DNA of 64,000 bases from the IMG/VR virus record IMGVR_UViG_3300030336_000001. One strand, given 5' to 3'. Position 1 is the stretch's first letter. Each line of letters begins with the position of its first letter. Position numbers and translations under genes: made by a program. The DNA comes from an uncultured virus (IMG/VR IMGVR_UViG_3300030336_000001) (lineage: Duplodnaviria > Heunggongvirae > Uroviricota > Caudoviricetes). Below, one piece after another: positions 3,571-57,876 of this stretch. The notes under the pieces are model-generated. The model saw only the letters and a program-made list of their open reading frames with translations, did no database searches and had not been told where the DNA came from.

Positions 3571-3825
3571 ATGAGAAAGAAGAATCCTCTGCAACCTATT
3601 CAGATAAAGATGCTGGATGTGTTATCTGATGGGTTGCCGCACAGCAGGAAGGAACTACACGCCTGCCTGTCAGATCCTATGGTAGACATGGCCGCAATCC
3701 GGGTACACATCTGCCACATACGCAAGGTTCTCCGGCCTAGAGGACAGGACATAGTCTGCGAGTTAAAGCATCGCAAGATCCACTACAGGCACGTTCGGCT
3801 GCTACTTGACCCTGGTGAGGACTAG
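3571..3825 (+). CDS. Small winged-helix DNA-binding protein
   Basis: 84 aa; SRKELHACL...AIRVHICHIRKVL resembles an OmpR-type wHTH. Confidence 0.5.
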   Translation: MRKKNPLQPIQIKMLDVLSDGLPHSRKELHACLSDPMVDMAAIRVHICHIRKVLRPRGQDIVCELKHRKIHYRHVRLLLDPGED

Positions 3826-3932
3826 CTTAAAGGGCTAAGATTTGAAAGAGATACTCTCACGGGATACCTAGACTGATCATCTTGGTATATTCTTTGGCTG
3901 TTCGGTTTTCCATTCGCTGAAGCCCGTGAGGG

Positions 3933-20652: not shown

Positions 20653-20680
20653 TACTCTCCTCCAGAGAAAGTGGTGAGTC

Positions 20681-37676: not shown

Positions 37677-37858
37677 GTGTTACTCCTTCTTGTAATATCG
37701 TTGTACCGTGGATTCCCATTCAAGTAGAACCTCCGTATCACACCGTAAACTCTAGATATAGAGATGTTGAACCTCTTCGCCAGGGCCGCATAAGACTCGC
37801 CTGCCAACCAATACCGGATCAACTCACGGTTGCGTCTGGTCTTCTCTGGTAGAGGCAT
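37673..37858 (-). CDS. Small HTH (Mor-like) protein
   Basis: RNRELIRYWLAGESYAALAKRFNISISRVYGVI. Confidence 0.55.
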   Translation of the reverse strand: MPLPEKTRRNRELIRYWLAGESYAALAKRFNISISRVYGVIRRFYLNGNPRYNDITRRSNT

Positions 37859-39134
37859 TAACCACCCTCTTGTACCTCGTCTCTGTCCACATTGTAGCCG
37901 CAATCTTCCAGGCGAAATCTTTGATCTGAAGGATACGCTTCCTTACCTGTGTTGCCGGTGACCCTAGCTTGTAGTGGTGGAACGCCGAGAACATGGGCTG
38001 TGCTACTGTCCTGAAGAACGGCTCGTCCCAGTTCAATGAGTCTATCATCTCCACAGAACGCTCAGTTGGATTCTGATTGATGTCAACAAAATCCTTTAGT
38101 TCTCGATCAAACACTGTCCAGTTATGAACCAATGGGACATGGTTCTTGCTGGTGTCACTAGCCAGATTCTGAATAGCCTGCACATCCCTACCAGACTCAA
38201 GCCACTCCTCCGGGTTCCAATTGTTGGTGTAGGCGTGCAGATTATTGGTAACGTGGTGATACTTCCCGACCTGCACACCAAGGTGTGCGGCTAGATATTC
38301 CTGGAGGAAAGTAAAATGCACATAGTTGGCTCCGAACAGTCCCCAGATCATGTCATTACTCCTGTTAACGACAGTCATGTCTAGCCACCGGTTGGGCAAG
38401 AAGATGTTATCTGGGTCGCCAACACAGTTCGGACAGGTGAATGGGGACTCGTCAAGCTCTGCCGCACGCTCTGGTGTCCAGTTACCCTTGCATGTTGGGC
38501 AGACCGGGTCCGTACGCAGGGCGAACATAACCACCAAGTTACAACACACATCCTTGGAGTTATCTATCCTCAGTAGATCGCCCCCCACATTCCACATTGA
38601 CAACACCGCACGCCTACTGTGGGGGTTGGCTCTCAGGTGGTTGATGATTACCTGGAGTTGGTCAACGTAGGTTGGTGGCTCCAGCATTCCGCCGTGTTTA
38701 CTGACGTAGTCAGCGTTGCCATCCTCAATCATATAACGACGCCACCTATACCCGTAAGCACCATTGAACGTCATTCCATCGTCGCTAAACTCGGCCATCC
38801 TCTTGACGTAGTACTGCAACGGAGCCACATCATTCCTGCCAGCTAGCATCCACAATGCTTCGTACAGGTGGAAGAACGGGTTACAATCCCGTGCAGGGTT
38901 GAGCAGTACCCTGGCTTTAGGATTGTGATAGGTGATGGTGATTGGCTCCGGATGGTAGATGCAGTCACCGTACCGACTGGGTGTCTTCTCGACCAGTGCC
39001 CTACCTGTGTGGAACAACTCGACTACTTGGTGAAACGCATCCGCTAAGTCTCTGTACTTCAGGTGCATGGTATCCTCCTGTCTTAGTCGGGCGACTATCT
39101 TCCTAATGTTAACAGAACTAAACCTCAAAATCAA
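37824..39134 (-). CDS. Thymidylate synthase-family protein, probable dUMP hydroxymethylase (likely start 39068)
   Basis: GAYGYRWR, SRRAVLSMW, KDVCCN (catalytic Cys) and RSNDMIWG..AN (dUMP-specifying Asn). Confidence 0.75.
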   Translation of the reverse strand: MILRFSSVNIRKIVARLRQEDTMHLKYRDLADAFHQVVELFHTGRALVEKTPSRYGDCIYHPEPITITYHNPKARVLLNPARDCNPFFHLYEALWMLAGRNDVAPLQYYVKRMAEFSDDGMTFNGAYGYRWRRYMIEDGNADYVSKHGGMLEPPTYVDQLQVIINHLRANPHSRRAVLSMWNVGGDLLRIDNSKDVCCNLVVMFALRTDPVCPTCKGNWTPERAAELDESPFTCPNCVGDPDNIFLPNRWLDMTVVNRSNDMIWGLFGANYVHFTFLQEYLAAHLGVQVGKYHHVTNNLHAYTNNWNPEEWLESGRDVQAIQNLASDTSKNHVPLVHNWTVFDRELKDFVDINQNPTERSVEMIDSLNWDEPFFRTVAQPMFSAFHHYKLGSPATQVRKRILQIKDFAWKIAATMWTETRYKRVVNASTREDQTQP

Positions 39135-39177
39135 CAGCCCCTCCGTGTATCCCGTCCAAATTTTTATCGAATATCTA

Positions 39178-39206
39178 TTGACTAATCCATAGCTCTCTCC
39201 TATACT
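39178..39206 (+). promoter_or_regulatory. Sigma70-type promoter for the 39251 gene
   Basis: TTGACT-N17-TATACT. Confidence 0.7.
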
Positions 39207-39250
39207 ACTCTTGTGTGGACCATAACCATCGCCCTGTAAGGAGCTAAGTC

Positions 39251-39643
39251 ATGTCGGAAGTCAAGAAGCCAGTCGCCTCCACCGCAACCGCAACCAAACC
39301 GGCTGGCAAGAAACCGGCGGCTCAGAAGCCAGCCACTCCAAAGCCACCGGCTCAGAAGCTGACCAAGCTGACACCGGAAGAGGAGCGTGAGAACGCTACG
39401 TCCGTTGGACTGGGTTTGGTACAGTACCGTATCCTGCGTGCGATGTCCGACGGTACGGAGCACAGCTATCGAGACATCGAGGCGAAGACCGGCTACTACA
39501 AGAACCTCACCCCGGTCATGCGTCAAGCCTACGATGGTAGCCTTTCTGCAAAAGGTCTGATCAAAGAGGTTGTCAAGAACGTTGATGGCAAAGAGAAAAT
39601 CACCTTCGTCATCACCGCCAACGGCAAGAAGCTCGTCAAGTGA
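39251..39643 (+). CDS. Winged-helix DNA-binding protein with Lys/Pro/Ala-rich N-tail
   Basis: QYRILRAMSDG..SYRDIEAKTG..KGLIKE..FVITANGKK; only + strand gene in the right arm. Confidence 0.65.
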   Translation: MSEVKKPVASTATATKPAGKKPAAQKPATPKPPAQKLTKLTPEEERENATSVGLGLVQYRILRAMSDGTEHSYRDIEAKTGYYKNLTPVMRQAYDGSLSAKGLIKEVVKNVDGKEKITFVITANGKKLVK

Positions 39644-40352
39644 CCCTCCGCCCTATGCAAAACATCATCCTGTCAAGCATAGGGCATCCCACCCCATCCT
39701 GCATCATTCTATCCAGTTCTGCACGGTAACATACCGTGTGGAACTGGTCTCTTAATCGACTCAACCTCCTGGCGAAGTTGGCTAGAGACTTGTCTCTGCT
39801 ATGGTGGTACTCCAGTACCAGCTTGTTGCACGGAGGTATAAGATCGGCGTCTATTATACCAAGCTCAGACCCCTCAATATCCATTTTCACCCCATCCCAA
39901 CCACCTTGTAGCAACCCAGCCCACACGTTAGGTACTAGTCTGCTATGCTTGTACCCTCGAACTCTCATCACGGTATGCCTAGCCGTATTGCTAGGGTCTC
40001 CGTTGTGATACAGGTCAACCTCATGACAGTTGTGTTCCGTAACGGCAGCCATGTGGCAGTCTGCCCACGGGCAGTTTCTCTGGAGGAGAGTATAGTTATC
40101 CTCATCTGGTTCGTAGCAGGTGACTCTCGCTCCGGCCAGGTGGCAGTAGAGTGCGAACACTCCGATGTTAGCTCCTAGATCTAACCATCGTTCCCCAGGC
40201 AGCACGTCGAATCCCACCTTCACCTTTCGATACGACTTGTCCTTAAATACCTCTCGTATGGTGTGACTATCAGTAGTGTCTGGTCTATACCGAAAGTTAA
40301 CACCCTGTATCTTGGTAACCACCAGTTTCTTGCTGGAAACTCTTATCACCAC
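39636..40352 (-). CDS. FkbM-family methyltransferase
   Basis: LDLGANIG, YEPDEDN and VKMDIEGSE motifs. Confidence 0.85.
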   Translation of the reverse strand: MVIRVSSKKLVVTKIQGVNFRYRPDTTDSHTIREVFKDKSYRKVKVGFDVLPGERWLDLGANIGVFALYCHLAGARVTCYEPDEDNYTLLQRNCPWADCHMAAVTEHNCHEVDLYHNGDPSNTARHTVMRVRGYKHSRLVPNVWAGLLQGGWDGVKMDIEGSELGIIDADLIPPCNKLVLEYHHSRDKSLANFARRLSRLRDQFHTVCYRAELDRMMQDGVGCPMLDRMMFCIGRRVT

Positions 40353-41221
40353 TCGTCTCCTTTCCCATCATAAAGACCCCGTGTCCTACCCTCGTGGAGC
40401 CTGGTTCGCTCCCACTTGTCATACTCACACATGCAGTTTTGGAAGTCTATGGCTTCCATCCTAGCCACCAGGTGTTTGTTCAGCCTCCTACTCAACCTTT
40501 CCTTAACCTCTTTCATCTCAACCTGGAACTGTCGTCCGCTCACCTTGTACCGCATGTCTCGCTCATACAGCCGGTTCAGACCCTTAACCGAACCCGGTCC
40601 TACGGGGAACCAAGTCCACCGATCGGCCCACTCACCCGTCACCGCCCAACGCAAGTCTGCTACTATCTGGCTAGCTATGAACTTGCTCACACCTGGAAAC
40701 CCCTGCAAATCCATCCAGGTTGACCGCATGCTAAACGGGGTTATATCTGGTGCCATACGATACATGGTGTCACAGACTATGTTGATAACCTGATACACCT
40801 TAGTCTGCTTCTCACGGTCTCGACAGCCGTGATTGCCGGTTATCAGGTACGCTGCGGAGAAGTTTTTCAACCCATGTCTACTCCTTTCCTCCAGAAGATC
40901 TGTTAGTCGGGTAGGCTCCCATACGTGAGGAAATCCTACAGCCTCTAGTGAATCAACCCTGTTAAGGTGTCTAGCCAGGGTTGCAGCCAACAGTATGTTG
41001 GGGTGGTCCTTGTAGGGCGTATACCAGTTCTTGATCAACCAAGAAGACACCTTGTCGTCTGCCCTGACTACGTTGCAGAACTTCCTACTCTGCAGAATCC
41101 TGTCATCTGTCCAGGGCTTGGGCAAACCCATCTTCTTCTTCATACGAATCTGCTCCCGCTCGGTTACCCAGTATACCAGTCGCTCGAACGGGGGTAGCTT
41201 ACCGGCATCACTTACTAACAT
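40346..41221 (-). CDS. aGPT-Pplase1 / 5-hmdU DNA kinase helical-domain-like protein
   Basis: WVTERE..KPWTDDRIL..FCNVVRADD, GPGS..GL and NCMCEYDKW motifs. Confidence 0.7.
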   Translation of the reverse strand: MLVSDAGKLPPFERLVYWVTEREQIRMKKKMGLPKPWTDDRILQSRKFCNVVRADDKVSSWLIKNWYTPYKDHPNILLAATLARHLNRVDSLEAVGFPHVWEPTRLTDLLEERSRHGLKNFSAAYLITGNHGCRDREKQTKVYQVINIVCDTMYRMAPDITPFSMRSTWMDLQGFPGVSKFIASQIVADLRWAVTGEWADRWTWFPVGPGSVKGLNRLYERDMRYKVSGRQFQVEMKEVKERLSRRLNKHLVARMEAIDFQNCMCEYDKWERTRLHEGRTRGLYDGKGDEW

Positions 41222-45546: not shown

Positions 45547-45710
45547 TAAGTAGTTGCTGGGCTTCTTCTACTGTGATATTCACGAACGCTAACAGTATAG
45601 TGTTGACAGGCGACGAGTCGCCACCTCCCTCACTATGTTCAGGTTCCATTCTCTTTCCTCCAGAGAACCAGACCGACCGGTGTTACCCGATCGGTCCAGT
45701 GGTGTTGGTA

Positions 45711-46562
45711 TCAAGAGGCTTCTTTTGGCTCCGCTTGTTCGTTGAAGACGCGTAACTGTTCGAGCGTGCGCAGACAGTTCTTACTGTCCTTCTTCAGTCC
45801 TTTGTTGTAGTACTTGCACATAGTCTCGATCATACCCCTCTGCTTGGCACTGATATAGTTACCAACGTCGAGTAAGATTCTCCTAGGTGACACGTTCAGT
45901 TGCTCTACGAACCTGTCATCCTTGAGAATCTCACCTTGCCATGCAACCAGGGACACTACTCCATAGAAGAACAGTTCGGCCATAGCCTCATCCTGTCCTG
46001 GCCAGGTCTTCATCATAAGTGTCAGTGCTCGTTGCACCACGTCCTCACCGAATCTGGCAGTCAGTCTGTAGAGACTACCAAGACAGGCAATCTCCCCATA
46101 CTTCAGAACACGTGACCCGGTCATGGTAGGTGACGTCGGTATAGCCAGTTTCATTCCAGCACCTTCGACGGCAGACTTGGCTGCCAGTGCAATAGGGTCT
46201 TGTGCAGTCAACGAAGTAACGAACATCTGTGCAGCGGAGACGGCAACCCTACCTCCGTTCAGAATCTTGAAGATCTGAGCCTCATACTGTGGCCCACTGC
46301 TTTCCAACATCAGACACTTCCAGTGTTCCATCCCCAACTTCATCATGGCCGTCATTCGTTGCAAACCGTCAATGATGTATAGCTTACCATCACTCCTTCT
46401 ACCAACCGTCAGTACTCCTGCTGCTGCTGGCATGAAGTTCTTCTCGATCTTCCTGGCGTGTGGTTTGATACCACGCTGATAGGAGTTGTCTACCGTGAGT
46501 GTAGACAATAGAACCTTCTCGATCTTACCTTCCAGACTCCCACCGATTCGACGACTCGACAT
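45711..46562 (-). CDS. ParB/Srx-like N-domain protein (DUF6551-like)
   Basis: VDNSYQR, IIDGLQR and EAQIFKILN motifs. Confidence 0.65.
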   Translation of the reverse strand: MSSRRIGGSLEGKIEKVLLSTLTVDNSYQRGIKPHARKIEKNFMPAAAGVLTVGRRSDGKLYIIDGLQRMTAMMKLGMEHWKCLMLESSGPQYEAQIFKILNGGRVAVSAAQMFVTSLTAQDPIALAAKSAVEGAGMKLAIPTSPTMTGSRVLKYGEIACLGSLYRLTARFGEDVVQRALTLMMKTWPGQDEAMAELFFYGVVSLVAWQGEILKDDRFVEQLNVSPRRILLDVGNYISAKQRGMIETMCKYYNKGLKKDSKNCLRTLEQLRVFNEQAEPKEAS

Positions 46563-46689
46563 AGTGTTCTCCTGTTACTAAGACCAACGGTTAAAGAAAC
46601 TGCCTGTCTTTCCTCACCACGCCGGACAGGCACGACGTTCCTCGGGACACTGGTCTGTGGGAAGTGACTTTCACAGCCAGGTTGGTGAT

Positions 46690-46758
46690 TACTACCGGTA
46701 GGAATCGAACCCACCCTCCCGCAAGGTTGCGACCCTTACGTGGACCACCAGGAGTAGC
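46690..46758 (-). ncRNA. tRNA-like RNA A (non-canonical 6+6 fold)
   Basis: GCTACT/GGTAGT acceptor, GGTGGG-TTCGATT-CCTACC T arm, CGTAAGG-GTCGCAA-CCTTGCG arm. Confidence 0.6.
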
Positions 46759-46760
46759 AT

Positions 46761-46854
46761 TGCTGCTGGCAGGAATCGAACCTGCCCTAAAACTTCATAG
46801 CTCCCGTCTACTGGCATGTCACTATGAAGCTCCCCTCTAGCCACCAGGAGCAGC
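46761..46854 (-). ncRNA. tRNA-like RNA B (non-canonical 6+6 fold, extended central stem)
   Basis: GCTGCT/AGCAGC acceptor, GGCAGG-TTCGATT-CCTGCC T arm, AGCTTCATAG/CTATGAAGTT stem. Confidence 0.6.
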
Positions 46855-47117
46855 GTAGCAGACTTTACACCCACGGTCTGCCAGCGTGGCGGAATCTACC
46901 AACCTCGAACAGGGAGGTAAGTAGGTCGGTAGCGTGTTTGGTGGTGGGCTGCCAGCGTTATCTCCTCCGCCCACCGGGGAGTTTAACCCTGTCGCCGATG
47001 CGTCCAAGCAACAGGGGTTCGACGTACGGCCTGCTAAGGATACCCACAAGGTGTCTCCTACCTCCTTAGCAGCCTGGGACACTGGCCTTGCCCAGCAACG
47101 AGCACGGCAGGAGAAAT
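46855..47117 (-). ncRNA. Putative multi-hairpin ncRNA of unknown class
   Basis: Consecutive stems CTGCTAAGGA/TCCTTAGCAG, CCCTGTTGC/GCGACAGGG, GGTGGGC/GCCCACC, CTACCGACCT/AGGTTGGTAG and GCAGAC/GTCTGC. Confidence 0.5.
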
Positions 47118-47189
47118 AGGCTCCGGCAGGACTCGAACCTGCACTACTAGATTTAGAGTCTAGTCGTCTTCCAGTTGACTCACGGAGCC
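47118..47189 (-). tRNA. tRNA-Sup, anticodon CUA (amber suppressor)
   Basis: GGCTCCG/CGGAGCC acceptor, CTAGA-CTCTAAA-TCTAG anticodon arm, GCAGG-TTCGAGT-CCTGC T arm; CCA not encoded. Confidence 0.85.
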
Positions 47190-47204
47190 GGGGCGGTAGA
47201 GGAG

Positions 47205-47234
47205 ATTATAAATCTCCCCCACCTATCTTGTCAA
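47205..47234 (-). promoter_or_regulatory. Consensus sigma70 promoter of the tRNA/ncRNA operon
   Basis: TTGACA-N18-TATAAT; the -10 lies inside palindrome GGAGATT-ATA-AATCTCC (47201-47217). Confidence 0.8.
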
Positions 47235-50065: not shown

Positions 50066-51292
50066 TTAGGTACTAAGTTCCGGGAACAGATTGTCGGTTC
50101 GCTCCAGCCCAGCCTCACTGCCGCTGTGCAGGTACTCATCCAACTCGGAAGAGCCACCCTCATCCAGTACGTTGTACACTCCGAACGGGTGCCGCCAGTG
50201 GGCACCCCTACCACCGGCATTCATCCAGCAGTCCTCGGTTTCCTGGAGCCACCCCCACCAGTCGCACAGGCTCTCCAGTATGGGGTCTAGGCACTCCTTG
50301 GTGAACCGTCTTACATCGGCAGGGCTAATCTCAACCCGCCACCGCATGAAGAAGTTGTCCGGCTCTTCCATTATAACAGAGGCGAGTCGAGAGTAAAACT
50401 CGTCCTGAGTTTCTGGCGGCTTCCCGCCGATCCGCCCATCCCCACCACACTTTACGCACCTGGCACCGCTGGGCATCTTACCTTCACCCTTGCACTTCCC
50501 GCACTTAGCCCCGGCAGTACCCTTGCCCCTGACTATACTACCTTTCCCTCCAGAGAGTGGCCTCCGGACCACGTTGTAACGTACACCACCGATTAGATAC
50601 TCTCTACCGTCGGCGTGTCTGTAGTGACCCAGTCGTGCCAGGTCAGGACTCGGATTGTTGTATAGGGCGGTCATGTACATCATGGTCTGCAAGTCGAAGT
50701 GCAGTTGCTTCTTAAGTGCCTCCGGTTGCACGTCACCCTTCGTCTTGTTCTCCTGGATGTACACGGCTGCGTTCCTGCCCTTACCAATCAGGTCAACGCT
50801 GTCCCACTTACCCCGGAGAGTAACGATCTTACCTGATGGCAACTGGTATGGAACCCCGAAGGACTCTTCCTGGAGGAGAGGGGTACGCTGTAGTACATCT
50901 GGGTGTTCTGACCAGTAGTACAGATATAGTGGGAACTGTGTAGAACACACGTTCATCCAGTGTTCAATGTTATCCTGGTCGGTGGGGTACTTCCTCATCA
51001 ACTGGCCACAGTAGTCTGCTAGATAGCCCTGCCACTCATAGCCCTGTGCCCACATCTCCTCACATATGTGCCACATCTGACCATACTCGATACGATGGTT
51101 GAACCCTGACGCTGGCTTCAGACCCTCTACAACCAGTAACCTGAACCTCTCACGACACACGATGAATCTGCTGAGCAGGGAGAAGGTGATGCCGTCAACC
51201 TCCGGTCCCTTCCACACCGGGCCTGACCGAGCCTTTGGCCTGACCCTGTCAGCAGAGCCTATGCTACTCTTCAGCTTCTTAACAAAGTCCAT
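50066..51292 (-). CDS. PD-(D/E)XK exonuclease with DnaJ-type zinc-finger insert
   Basis: ITFSLL..CRERF, GKWD..ENKT and QTMMY motifs; CGKCKGEG..CVKCGGDG. Confidence 0.75.
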   Translation of the reverse strand: MDFVKKLKSSIGSADRVRPKARSGPVWKGPEVDGITFSLLSRFIVCRERFRLLVVEGLKPASGFNHRIEYGQMWHICEEMWAQGYEWQGYLADYCGQLMRKYPTDQDNIEHWMNVCSTQFPLYLYYWSEHPDVLQRTPLLQEESFGVPYQLPSGKIVTLRGKWDSVDLIGKGRNAAVYIQENKTKGDVQPEALKKQLHFDLQTMMYMTALYNNPSPDLARLGHYRHADGREYLIGGVRYNVVRRPLSGGKGSIVRGKGTAGAKCGKCKGEGKMPSGARCVKCGGDGRIGGKPPETQDEFYSRLASVIMEEPDNFFMRWRVEISPADVRRFTKECLDPILESLCDWWGWLQETEDCWMNAGGRGAHWRHPFGVYNVLDEGGSSELDEYLHSGSEAGLERTDNLFPELST

Positions 51293-51561
51293 TACGCCTC
51301 CATTATATCATTGAGACAATCTTTGCAGATAGGACACAGCTTAACCACCACCCCGTGGTTCTCCTTGGTAATCAACTCGCTACAGATAGTACAGCCGGTC
51401 TGACCTTTGGCTCTCTCACCCTTCCTGATGGTAGCCTGTTCCGGTGCGTCGATAGAGATGCTAACACCGTTGCGGTACAGGTCTTCAACCCTGATCACCA
51501 CCTTCTCTTTACCCTCACCGATCACGATTGCCTGGCCAATCTCTCTCGTCAGTATCAGCAT
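51292..51561 (-). CDS. csrA: CsrA/RsmA-like protein with C-terminal zinc ribbon
   Basis: MLILTREIGQAIVIG..VSISIDAP...IRKGE matches the CsrA consensus; then CTIC..CPIC. Confidence 0.7.
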   Translation of the reverse strand: MLILTREIGQAIVIGEGKEKVVIRVEDLYRNGVSISIDAPEQATIRKGERAKGQTGCTICSELITKENHGVVVKLCPICKDCLNDIMEA

Positions 51562-55611: not shown

Positions 55612-57876
55612 TTAGCTCACATAGGTTAGTTCATGGATTGCCCTGGTGACGCCAACATAGAGGAGGTTATACTCCTGTTCCAACTGCCATGCCATCTTGG
55701 CCGAGGGGTGTGGGCAGGGTGACTCCTCTGGTTGTAGGAAGTACACCCGTTCAGACTCAAGACCCTTGGCCTTGTGAATACTACTGAACTTGACGCCAGG
55801 ACTGACGGTGTCGTCTGTGAACAAGGACTTGATCTTGTGGATCACCCCCTCCACCGTTAACTGACCATCGGTGAAGCACATCACACAGTCAGCCCTGTCA
55901 TTGATGCCCATGATACGGGTCTCTGAAGGCATCTTCTTCGCTTGCTCCTTGGTTATCTCACCGAACCTCCACTCGTCCAGCTTACCAATCAAATCAGGCA
56001 CACTCTCAGCACCCATCCTGTTGACGAGATTGACAAGGTCATCACCGATCCTCCTCCCTTGTATCATGGCTCGCCTACCCTTCTTGAGAAGGCGGAAGCA
56101 CTGGTTAACCAGTGGTGCGTTGGTTCTGCACAACACCATGTCACCGTCCTTGGTTGTTGGTAAGTAAGTATCCTCGTATGGAATCTCTCGCACACCCTGA
56201 TCCCAGTAGTTACTCGACCGCTGAGTGGTGTACTTACCGTGACTGATCTTCCCTTCGTGCGTGTCGGGGAAGTAGGAGAAGTCTGGTACGATACGCCTAG
56301 CCTCCTCTACGATGGCCTTGCCACACCGTCTGGTAACGGTGAGGGGTAACTCCACACAACCGGCAGGGGTGTCATCCAACTCCTTCAGCATGCGAGCCAT
56401 GCTCTGAGTATCGGCTCCAGTGAAACCATATATAGCCTGCCTGTCGTCACCGCACATGACCAACCGCTTACCCATCTTCCTAGCAAGGGCGTGTTGGCAC
56501 CTGCCCAAGTCCTGGAACTCGTCGATCAGGAGCAGGTCGTATCGGAACACTGGTAGGTCCAGGATGACAGGCAACCAGACCATGTCAGAGTAGTCGATCA
56601 TACCCCTACTCTTCGGATCCTTGCACTTCTTGAGTATGTCAGGCACCAACTCCAGCAGGTTGTCACGATGAGTACCAACCTCCACGTCGTACCTGTCGAT
56701 CAGGTAGTCCAGATTATCCTCAGTTGGGTCACTGAGTGTGACCTTACAGAGCCGTACCAACTCTGCCGCAGCCGATGGTAGGATTGGGTCTTTCTCCCTG
56801 AGTACCCTAATGTCCAGACCAGTTAGTTCCTCCATGATCAGGTATGTTACTAGTCTGTCATCGTCGGGCACCTCCAGTTTACCCATCGACTTGAGTACCG
56901 ACCGGTAACCCAGACCGTGCATAGTCTTGGCCTCTACTCCTTGAGGCACCCTGTCTTTCAACACCCTTGCGATAGACGTATTGTATGCACACATGCAGAT
57001 GAACCTGGCACCCTTACTCTCCTCCAGAGAATCCCATACCAGAGCCTGTTGCTCTGATGGTGTGATCTTGGGGATGCCGCCAGTCACCATGTCCAAGCCA
57101 CCGATCAGAGTTGTAGTCTTACCAGTACCAGCCCTCGCCTTCACCATCAGGTGTGGTGGTAGTCCACTACGACGATGTTCTCTGGAGGAAAGGGGATCAT
57201 GTTCATGGGCTACCACTGTAGGCTCAGTCCCACTATTCGGTATAACTCGGAGGGGCTTTTTGATCTTGCTTCTGAGCATTGCGGATAGTCCAGACTTGCC
57301 ACCACCGGTTGATCTCGTACTCCCTGGTTCGGCAGAGTTCTCGCTGGTGTCGTTCGTACCAGTTGACGGTGAACTCTGAGAACTCGCCTGCGATCTCACC
57401 ACAGGGGTTGAGGATGGCTGGTACTGTGAGGGTTGGGTAGGGTCCGGGCTATGCTCACCCTCAGATTCATCGGTGATATCGACATCCGTATCTTCTACAG
57501 ACTGCACACCACCTTCGGAGGGGGTTGTAGATGTTTCGGTAGGGTTTGCTTCCTCGCTGATCTTCCCATCGAGAGTAGCCTCGCTCGCCTCCGCGAACGG
57601 GTCATCCACCACGGTGATAAGGTCTGGAGCTTCAACCTTCTTCACCTCTACTCCAACCCTACCAGTGTTGTTACTCCCGCCGTAGGGCTGTACCTCTACA
57701 CGGAACTTCTGTGCCGAGCGGAACACAACCTGTCTCTTGGTGGTAAGGTTGGTACAGTAGTAACGCCAACCCCTACCACGGAACCCTTGCTCAATACGGT
57801 CCACTCTTACCGTGGTGAGTTTATCACTCACCTTGGCCCTGTAGGTCTTGCCAATCTGAATCTCGTCGTGTCGCAT
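55612..57876 (-). CDS. UvrD/REP-like SF1 helicase with extended N-terminus
   Basis: ARAGTGKTT, IDEFQD, GDDRQAIYGF, SIHKAKGLE and YVGVTRA motifs. Confidence 0.9.
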   Translation of the reverse strand: MRHDEIQIGKTYRAKVSDKLTTVRVDRIEQGFRGRGWRYYCTNLTTKRQVVFRSAQKFRVEVQPYGGSNNTGRVGVEVKKVEAPDLITVVDDPFAEASEATLDGKISEEANPTETSTTPSEGGVQSVEDTDVDITDESEGEHSPDPTQPSQYQPSSTPVVRSQASSQSSPSTGTNDTSENSAEPGSTRSTGGGKSGLSAMLRSKIKKPLRVIPNSGTEPTVVAHEHDPLSSREHRRSGLPPHLMVKARAGTGKTTTLIGGLDMVTGGIPKITPSEQQALVWDSLEESKGARFICMCAYNTSIARVLKDRVPQGVEAKTMHGLGYRSVLKSMGKLEVPDDDRLVTYLIMEELTGLDIRVLREKDPILPSAAAELVRLCKVTLSDPTEDNLDYLIDRYDVEVGTHRDNLLELVPDILKKCKDPKSRGMIDYSDMVWLPVILDLPVFRYDLLLIDEFQDLGRCQHALARKMGKRLVMCGDDRQAIYGFTGADTQSMARMLKELDDTPAGCVELPLTVTRRCGKAIVEEARRIVPDFSYFPDTHEGKISHGKYTTQRSSNYWDQGVREIPYEDTYLPTTKDGDMVLCRTNAPLVNQCFRLLKKGRRAMIQGRRIGDDLVNLVNRMGAESVPDLIGKLDEWRFGEITKEQAKKMPSETRIMGINDRADCVMCFTDGQLTVEGVIHKIKSLFTDDTVSPGVKFSSIHKAKGLESERVYFLQPEESPCPHPSAKMAWQLEQEYNLLYVGVTRAIHELTYVS

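What the first reader, a model, noticed from the sequence alone, without database searches (positions are those of the whole stretch)
46580..47117. Unknown structured RNAs punctuated by tRNA-like units, with GGA-bearing loops
Seen in sequence: about 260 nt with at least five stems between the tRNA-Sup and element B, and about 110 nt with two stems after element A. Both segments contain CTGG..CCAG-TGTCCC (GGGACACTGG near 46644 and 47076). Several loops carry GGA (AGGT-AGGAGAC-ACCT, TTGGAC, GGAGGAG, GAGGAAA). Inference: RNase P/Z cleavage at the flanking units would release discrete sRNAs, possibly a Csr-type sponge paired with the phage CsrA, or a new ncRNA class.
Basis: partly seen in the sequence, partly recalled or inferred. 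Interest (0 to 1): 0.7.

Follow-up and report, generated by a model that had tools for sequence, protein, structure and literature searches.

The report
Phage tRNA-mimic operon, no Csr sponge
A perfect phage promoter sits in front of a stop-codon-reading tRNA and two odd tRNA-shaped RNAs of a kind that recurs in related phages; the two stretches between them fold no better than chance, lack CsrA-binding loops, and are more likely processing leftovers and a gene leader than a new class of small RNA.

Summary
The layout is real (minus strand): consensus sigma70 promoter 47234-47205, tRNA(CUA) 47189-47118, spacer 1 (263 nt), tRNA-like units B (46854-46761) and A (46758-46690), spacer 2 (115 nt), then a ParB-like DUF6551 gene. 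The Csr-sponge reading fails. GGA count is 10 against 9.4±2.2 in shuffles, the only ANGGA is base-paired, and the phage CsrA has changed RNA-binding residues. Relatives do carry ANGGAN hairpins at this slot (14 vs 1.4 expected); this cassette has none. The spacers fold no better than shuffles (z -0.8, -1.3), match no Rfam family or ribozyme pattern, and no homologue was found, so covariation is untestable. The shared CCAGTGTCCC is borderline (p 0.03). The 81-aa ORF has no homologue. What holds up is the tRNA-like units: 12 of 66 related phages carry irregular RNAs at this region that keep the acceptor and T arm but have altered cores (27 sense, 2 antisense, 0-1 shuffled hits). A, B and three relatives' units share a 6+6 bp top half. 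RNase P/Z cutting at these units is plausible but untested. Spacer 2 looks like a leaky terminator or leader.

The parts
47205..47234 (-). sigma70-type promoter, TTGACA-18-TATAAT (12 of 12); start predicted near 47198
   Evidence: both hexamers unchanged in related contigs of runs X1/X2 except a 1-nt loss at 47210 in X1
47118..47189 (-). tRNA with CUA anticodon (amber suppressor type, U73, no encoded CCA; canonical shape, not a pyrrolysine tRNA despite the ARAGORN label)
   Evidence: 62.2 bits; compensatory U4:A69 to C4:G69 change in a related contig; TAG is an ordinary stop in 23 of 80 ORFs
46855..47117 (-). spacer 1, 263 nt; predicted hairpins 47072-47031, 47016-46987, 46981-46962, 46932-46896, 46883-46856; would be released by 3' processing of the tRNA and 5' processing of B
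   Evidence: z -0.78; no homologue
47076..47085 (-). copy 1 of CCAGTGTCCC, 33 nt behind the tRNA
46761..46854 (-). tRNA-like unit B: 6-bp acceptor + 6-bp T stem, canonical T loop, 13-bp anticodon-position stem with enlarged loop, A discriminator
   Evidence: tRNA model 20.5 bits, below cut-off; z -2.77
46690..46758 (-). tRNA-like unit A: 6+6 bp top half, mini D loop (UGGU), 7-bp stem with 7-nt loop GUCGCAA
   Evidence: mascRNA model 20.9 bits, below cut-off; z -1.93; same build in L130:5144-5213
46575..46689 (-). spacer 2, 115 nt; predicted three-way junction; leader of the DUF6551 gene
   Evidence: z -1.1 to -1.3; no homologue
46644..46653 (-). copy 2 of CCAGTGTCCC, 37 nt behind unit A
46593..46632 (-). 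8-bp hairpin with 16-nt loop followed by a U-rich run: atypical intrinsic-terminator or attenuator candidate
   Evidence: -13.2 kcal/mol; not listed by the terminator scan, whose loop limit is 8 nt
46567..46574 (-). ribosome-binding site of the DUF6551 gene; perfectly complementary over 8 nt to 47115-47108 just behind the tRNA
   Evidence: p 0.95; p 0.029 in shuffles; one related contig changes 47108, which would break the terminal pair unless compensated
45711..46562 (-). DUF6551 ParB/Noc-like protein, first gene behind the cassette
51292..51561 (-). divergent CsrA-like gene (context; R36 to S and R44 to K against E. coli numbering)

Best explanation
The region is a promoter-led phage RNA cassette of one amber tRNA and two irregular tRNA-like RNAs, in which host RNase P and RNase Z or exonucleases would likely cut at the tRNA-shaped units, leaving spacer 1 as a probably short-lived, lineage-specific piece and spacer 2 as a predicted leaky terminator and leader for the ParB-like gene. 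The selected products are inferred to be the tRNA and the top-half mimics A and B, which likely act as non-decoding tRNA decoys or scaffolds recognised by their acceptor/T-arm elbow. Shown: sequence, layout, family recurrence. Inferred: transcription, processing, decoy role.
For: Perfect promoter. tRNA under compensatory selection in a related contig. A and B fold above background while the spacers do not. Strict acceptor+T-arm scan of 96 related loci (66 distinct phages): 27 sense hits, 2 antisense, 0-1 in five shuffles; 12 of 66 phages have an irregular unit, 68-168 nt. A, B, L130, L204 and L218 share a 6+6 geometry with an unpaired 7:66 position. Spacers have no homologue in 81 sources (913 kb) by covariance model nor by blastn or nhmmer, and L210, the one relative with tRNA plus DUF6551 in the same order, has only about 35 nt between them. 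Hairpin plus U run at 46632-46593.
Against: No transcript or RNA-end data. In run X1 a related contig differs at only 3 listed places (4 at most) in 117 nt of spacer 1 against about 10% in coding pieces (Fisher p 0.007), which could mean selection on spacer 1; but the run was found through this stretch, and in X2 spacer 1 (2 of 51) is no more conserved than the flanking promoter region. RNase P prefers a 7-bp acceptor (PMC4201824 passage), and A/B have 6 bp in the best register. Relatives are distant (41-48% polymerase identity), so a fast-evolving functional sRNA would also lack homologues.
Confidence: 0.5

Rival explanations
1. Spacer 1 (and perhaps spacer 2 up to the U run) is a functional small RNA whose ends are made by tRNA-like punctuation, as mascRNA does for MALAT1 (analogy recalled); target unknown.
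For: Bounded on both sides by processing signals; a hairpin protects the predicted 3' end; ensemble is well defined (most helices p above 0.9); low divergence in the X1 contig, with a G-U to G-C change at 47048; L147 and L163 share a conserved inter-tRNA linker, so spacers can be selected in this family.
Against: Folding z not significant; no homologue; second X1 change (47045) breaks a predicted pair; the CU-rich loop at 46923-46907 has no preference for ribosome-binding sites.
Confidence: 0.22
2. The spacers are decayed tRNA-Leu-like genes from tandem duplication; CUGG..CCAG-UGUCCC is the anticodon-stem/long-variable-arm junction.
For: The same string occurs at that junction in two tRNA-Leu genes (L336, L351) among 19 motif sites in the T-arm-anchored searches; both copies lie 33-37 nt behind a tRNA-like 3' end; Leu-type D arms are common in the relatives' units.
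Against: No T loop or acceptor survives in either spacer; 0 of 121 unanchored motif sites lie in tRNAs; spacer-2 model scores spacer 1 at only 3.3 bits, E 3.
Confidence: 0.12
3. The whole cassette is a processing-controlled leader: in the precursor 47115-47108 pairs with the DUF6551 ribosome-binding site, and cutting at A or B frees it.
For: 8-bp perfect helix, p 0.95 in the fold, p 0.029 in shuffles; site mostly unpaired in the processed piece (0.2-0.9).
Against: Post hoc, spans 540 nt; not present in L210; a related contig changes 47108.
Confidence: 0.08
4. Csr/Rsm-type sponge for the phage or host CsrA.
For: The phage encodes a CsrA-like protein; relatives encode canonical CsrA next to this slot and have ANGGAN hexaloop hairpins there (9 of 39 loci, 14 vs 1.4 expected). 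A diverged CsrA could read another motif.
Against: 0 ANGGAN hexaloop hairpins in the cassette; one ANGGA, fully paired; GGA not enriched; no Csr/Rsm Rfam match at E up to 10; CsrA has R36S and R44K (importance of R44 recalled).
Confidence: 0.05
5. The 81-aa ORF 46837-47082 is the functional element.
For: Open for 81 codons and ends in TAG next to an amber tRNA.
Against: No homologue among 5.8 billion proteins at E up to 1 within 44-142 aa, none in 96 loci, no Pfam; both X1 changes hit second codon positions; read-through adds 5 codons.
Confidence: 0.02

Closest known systems
Polycistrons of irregular tRNAs and allo-tRNAs (Mukai et al., PMC5389517; abstract and passages read, supplements not read)
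   Same: Array of a suppressor-type tRNA and irregular tRNA-like sequences with a 12-bp acceptor branch; some are not used in translation.
   Different: Described folds are 7/5, 8/4 and 9/3 with long variable arms; A and B fit 6/6 best (7/5 or 8/4 only with a mismatch at pair 4:69), lack a long variable arm, and are separated by long spacers in a phage replication region.
T4 RNAC and RNAD (PMC3014915, PMC9697503; passages read)
   Same: Small non-tRNA RNAs transcribed from a phage tRNA region, function unknown.
   Different: No sequence similarity; expression shown for T4, not here.
Engineered tRNA scaffold (PMC3753655; passages read)
   Same: Acceptor, D and T arms kept, anticodon arm replaced by an insert; B and many relatives' units have this build.
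   Different: Synthetic; no cargo function is shown for the natural inserts.
YrlA Y RNAs (PMC4201824; passages read)
   Same: Phage-borne tRNA mimics, one of them cut by RNase P and CCA-tailed.
   Different: No Ro60/TROVE gene in this genome, no YrlA match, free 5'/3' ends at the acceptor.
CsrB/RsmZ-type sponges
   Same: A CsrA gene is near and some GGA triplets occur.
   Different: No repeated ANGGA loops.
Theta ribozymes (PMC10879173; passages read)
   Same: Sequence directly behind a phage suppressor tRNA.
   Different: No G1 at the tRNA 3' end, no HDV-like fold there; phage uses the standard code.

Membership tests
Csr/Rsm sponge sRNA | Many ANGGA motifs, enriched, in hairpin loops | tested here: not met
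Csr/Rsm sponge sRNA | Match to a Csr/Rsm Rfam model | tested here: not met
Csr/Rsm sponge sRNA | Binds CsrA | not testable with these tools
   needs gel shift or pull-down
Phage irregular tRNA-like RNA (units A, B) | T arm with canonical loop stacked on an acceptor, 12 bp in all, A at the discriminator | tested here: met
Phage irregular tRNA-like RNA (units A, B) | Processed by RNase P, CCA-tailed, expressed | not testable with these tools
   no RNA holder listed
allo-tRNA (8/4, 9/3) | Longer acceptor, shorter T stem, long variable arm | tested here: not met
   best fold 6/6, no long variable arm; an 8/4 register exists only with a mismatch
YrlA Y RNA | Adjacent Ro60/TROVE gene and YrlA model match | tested here: not met
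   (record 95% complete)
Theta/HDV-like, hammerhead, twister, pistol ribozymes | Catalytic core motifs and fold | tested here: not met
   motifs recalled; the 3 HDV-like pattern hits reuse the T loops of B and A
tmRNA | G3:U70 acceptor and tag frame | tested here: not met
   long-range acceptor pairings at 47099 and 46933 lack U8/D arm and are less stable than the local folds
New structured ncRNA class (spacers) | Covariation across homologues | tested here: inconclusive
   only identical copies found; two informative changes in a depth-2.7 contig, one keeping and one breaking a pair

The most novel reading that the evidence does not exclude
This uncultured phage family builds natural tRNA-scaffold RNAs, including an undescribed 6+6 bp top-half subtype, and this member uses them as RNase P/Z punctuation marks to cut a 263-nt cargo RNA out of a polycistron and to switch on the downstream ParB-like gene: a bacterial-phage counterpart of mascRNA-type end formation.
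Probability: 0.2. Interest if true: 0.72.

Novelty: new variant of a known kind. Interest (0 to 1): 0.4.

Why it matters
Irregular top-half tRNA mimics in phages are an open question (T4 RNAC/RNAD still have no function). This family offers a comparative set: at one syntenic slot, 12 of 66 phages carry such RNAs with freely varying cores, which makes the decoy versus scaffold question testable. The spacers themselves matter only if expression data show a stable product; the Csr-sponge idea should not be pursued for this phage, though it fits several relatives.

Tried and rejected
Rfam at gathering and at E up to 10: only the tRNA passes. blastn against 50,697 phage records: only short tRNA hits. 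Pattern scans for the shared motif: about 3,400 viral stretches estimated, 121 fetched, 0 in tRNAs; T-arm-anchored scans gave 18 metagenome and 100 viral stretches; the output was cut, and in the part seen none but this phage's own copies resembled the spacers. A/B pattern found only 3 identical copies. DUF6551-anchored viral scans found only identical copies. Single-sequence covariance models of each spacer: self-hits only. No RNA holder listed; runs X1 and X2 are contigs, probably DNA, one study, and cannot show expression or ends; they do not cover A, B or spacer 2. TAG recoding and programmed read-through: not seen. Giant-scaffold folds (acceptor of B with 47099, of A with 46933): ensemble -253.8 and -256.3 vs -261.3 kcal/mol for local folds. 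Anti-Shine-Dalgarno role for the 46923-46907 loop: no start-site preference. Loop 46624-46609 pairing upstream as antiterminator: best duplex p 0.043, at a site other than the one in the global fold. Ten literature searches showed no paper on this family or a 6/6 fold; the library lacks most subscription papers, and the supplements of PMC5389517, which show its irregular tRNAs, were not read. PMC8007984 passages gave nothing of use.

Full report
Context. The window is 64,000 of 68,868 bases of a tailed-phage record (portal, tape measure, polymerase A, helicase). No cultured relative is close (best polymerase hit 23%) and the host is unknown. TAG ends 23 of 80 long ORFs, so the code is standard. 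The finding lies on the minus strand between an orphan 96-aa ORF and a ParB/Noc-like DUF6551 gene.

Anatomy. A 12-of-12 sigma70 promoter (47234-47205) precedes a tRNA(CUA) (47189-47118, 62.2 bits), spacer 1 (47117-46855), unit B (46854-46761), unit A (46758-46690), spacer 2 (46689-46575), the ribosome-binding site (46574-46567) and the ATG at 46562. None of the three tRNA-shaped units encodes CCA.

Observation check. The two CCAGTGTCCC copies are the only ones in the window; a shared 10-mer between the shuffled spacers occurs in 3.1% of 2,000 trials. In spacer 1 the CCAG prefers a long-range partner, so the CUGG/CCAG hairpin is predicted only in spacer 2. GGA occurs 10 times against 9.4±2.2; the single ANGGA is inside a 10-bp stem.

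Csr test. Relatives were collected with alignments of the SSB-like ORF and the polymerase: 96 loci, 66 distinct phages. In 39 of the 48 SSB-anchored loci (three identical to the window and six others, mostly duplicates or truncated, left out), 9 have ANGGAN hexaloop hairpins within 250 nt of the SSB stop, 14 hairpins (two overlapping) against 1.4 expected; 7 of the 96 loci hold a CsrA homologue. So a CsrA link exists in the family, and the test can detect it. This cassette has none, and its CsrA aligns with S at R36 and K at R44 (the role of R44 in RNA binding is recalled). The sponge reading is not supported.

Units A and B. A strict scan for a T arm plus acceptor found 27 sense and 2 antisense hits in those loci, against 0, 0, 0, 0, 1 in five one-strand shuffles; 20 of 66 phages have a sense hit and 12 have an irregular one, 68-168 nt, mostly with a canonical D arm and an enlarged anticodon domain. 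With the T arm held fixed and the upstream sequence shuffled, 19 of 34 relatives' units reach p up to 0.1; B gives 0.07 and A 0.31 on its own. A, B, L130:5144, L204:671 and L218:4737 pair 48:66 rather than 7:66, giving 6+6 bp; A and L130 also share a UGGY mini D loop and a similar 7-nt loop. For A and B a 7/5 or 8/4 register with a mismatch at 4:69 is also possible (sequence). Rfam scores several relatives' units weakly as tRNA and finds no other family at the slot.

Spacers. No homologue was found by blastn or nhmmer, single-sequence covariance models over 913 kb, or anchored pattern scans of the viral and metagenome collections. L210, the only relative with DUF6551, has tRNA-Met and then about 35 nt before the gene. 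The only variation comes from low-depth contigs of a roughly 90% identical phage in two runs of one study. There the tRNA shows a compensatory acceptor change and the promoter hexamers are nearly untouched. Spacer 1 differs at 3 listed places in 117 nt in X1 (p 0.007 against coding pieces) and 2 in 51 in X2 (p 0.22); the runs were found through this stretch, and flanking DNA in the X2 contig is about as conserved, so this is a weak hint. Of the changes in predicted pairs, one turns G-U into G-C, one breaks a pair, one hits the end of the anti-RBS helix. The 81-aa ORF has no homologue and both X1 changes are at second codon positions. Ribozyme patterns are absent. Spacer 2 ends in an 8-bp hairpin with a 16-nt loop and a U-rich run, which could end part of the transcripts; otherwise it is the leader of DUF6551.

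Mechanism. Most likely (0.5) the promoter makes one precursor; RNase P and RNase Z or exonucleases, acting on the three top halves (established tRNA biology; RNase P cleavage of a tRNA mimic is shown for M. smegmatis YrlA, PMC4201824), release the tRNA, B and A; spacer 1 falls out as a by-product and spacer 2 remains as terminator or leader. A and B likely cannot decode and would act as elbow mimics (decoys or scaffolds). All steps after the sequence layout and the family recurrence are inferred. Rivals: functional spacer sRNA 0.22, decayed tRNA-Leu copies 0.12, processing-controlled leader 0.08, Csr sponge 0.05, small ORF 0.02.

Comparison and novelty. It works like the irregular-tRNA polycistrons of PMC5389517 and recalls T4 RNAC/RNAD, but is not an allo-tRNA, YrlA, tmRNA, theta ribozyme or Csr RNA by the features tested. 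Earlier AI notes of this scan describe similar top-half RNAs in other phages (unchecked), so the kind is recurrent. Ten searches of the held library showed no description of this family or of a 6/6 fold. Verdict: new variant of a known kind, interest 0.4.

Noticed in passing
window, genome-wide, e.g. 113-126, 20655-20668, 45653-45666, 57017-57030: A 15-bp pseudo-palindrome (CTYTC-TGGAG-GARAG) occurs 26 times at up to 2 mismatches against 1.4 expected, on both strands, in coding and intergenic DNA. L210, the only relative with a DUF6551 gene, has 5 copies of a near-identical motif in 14 kb (3.6 per 10 kb; this genome 2.5; all other loci 0.07). Likely a parS/NBS-type binding site of the ParB/Noc-like DUF6551 protein. 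Probably the most promising lead in this window.
   Followed up: partly
L149, L153, L154/L130, L160, L163/L132, L165/L131, L166, L185, L187: within 250 nt after the SSB-like stop: ANGGAN hexaloop hairpins, ten times enriched, in a family that encodes CsrA just upstream of the SSB-like gene: a candidate phage CsrA circuit in the relatives.
   Followed up: partly
L147:5145-5191 and L163:5083-5130: A conserved linker between two irregular tRNA-like units that can form an H-type pseudoknot; found in these two phages only.
   Followed up: partly
L167:5119, L217:3520, L161:5877, L159:1176, L152:5018, L195:2501, L147:5029 and 5216, L132:3510 and 3687, L179:5218, L204:671: tRNA-scaffold RNAs with perfect or near-perfect acceptors and long replaced anticodon domains.
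   Followed up: partly
L148:5119-5657, L160:2069-2504, L168:4034-4370, L159:1159-2313: Long apparently non-coding stretches at the same slot with no Rfam match there; may hold other RNAs.
   Followed up: no
window 47118-47189: An amber tRNA under selection in a phage that uses TAG as a normal stop; no obvious read-through target. L217 also has a CTA tRNA at 3762-3835.
   Followed up: partly
window 46856-46958: A short ACGCU(G/A) unit starts four successive stems (spacings 24-47 nt), suggesting local duplication (D4 and D8).
   Followed up: no
window 37824-41221: Thymidylate-synthase-like, 5-hmdU kinase and FkbM methyltransferase genes point to a modified-base genome.
   Followed up: no
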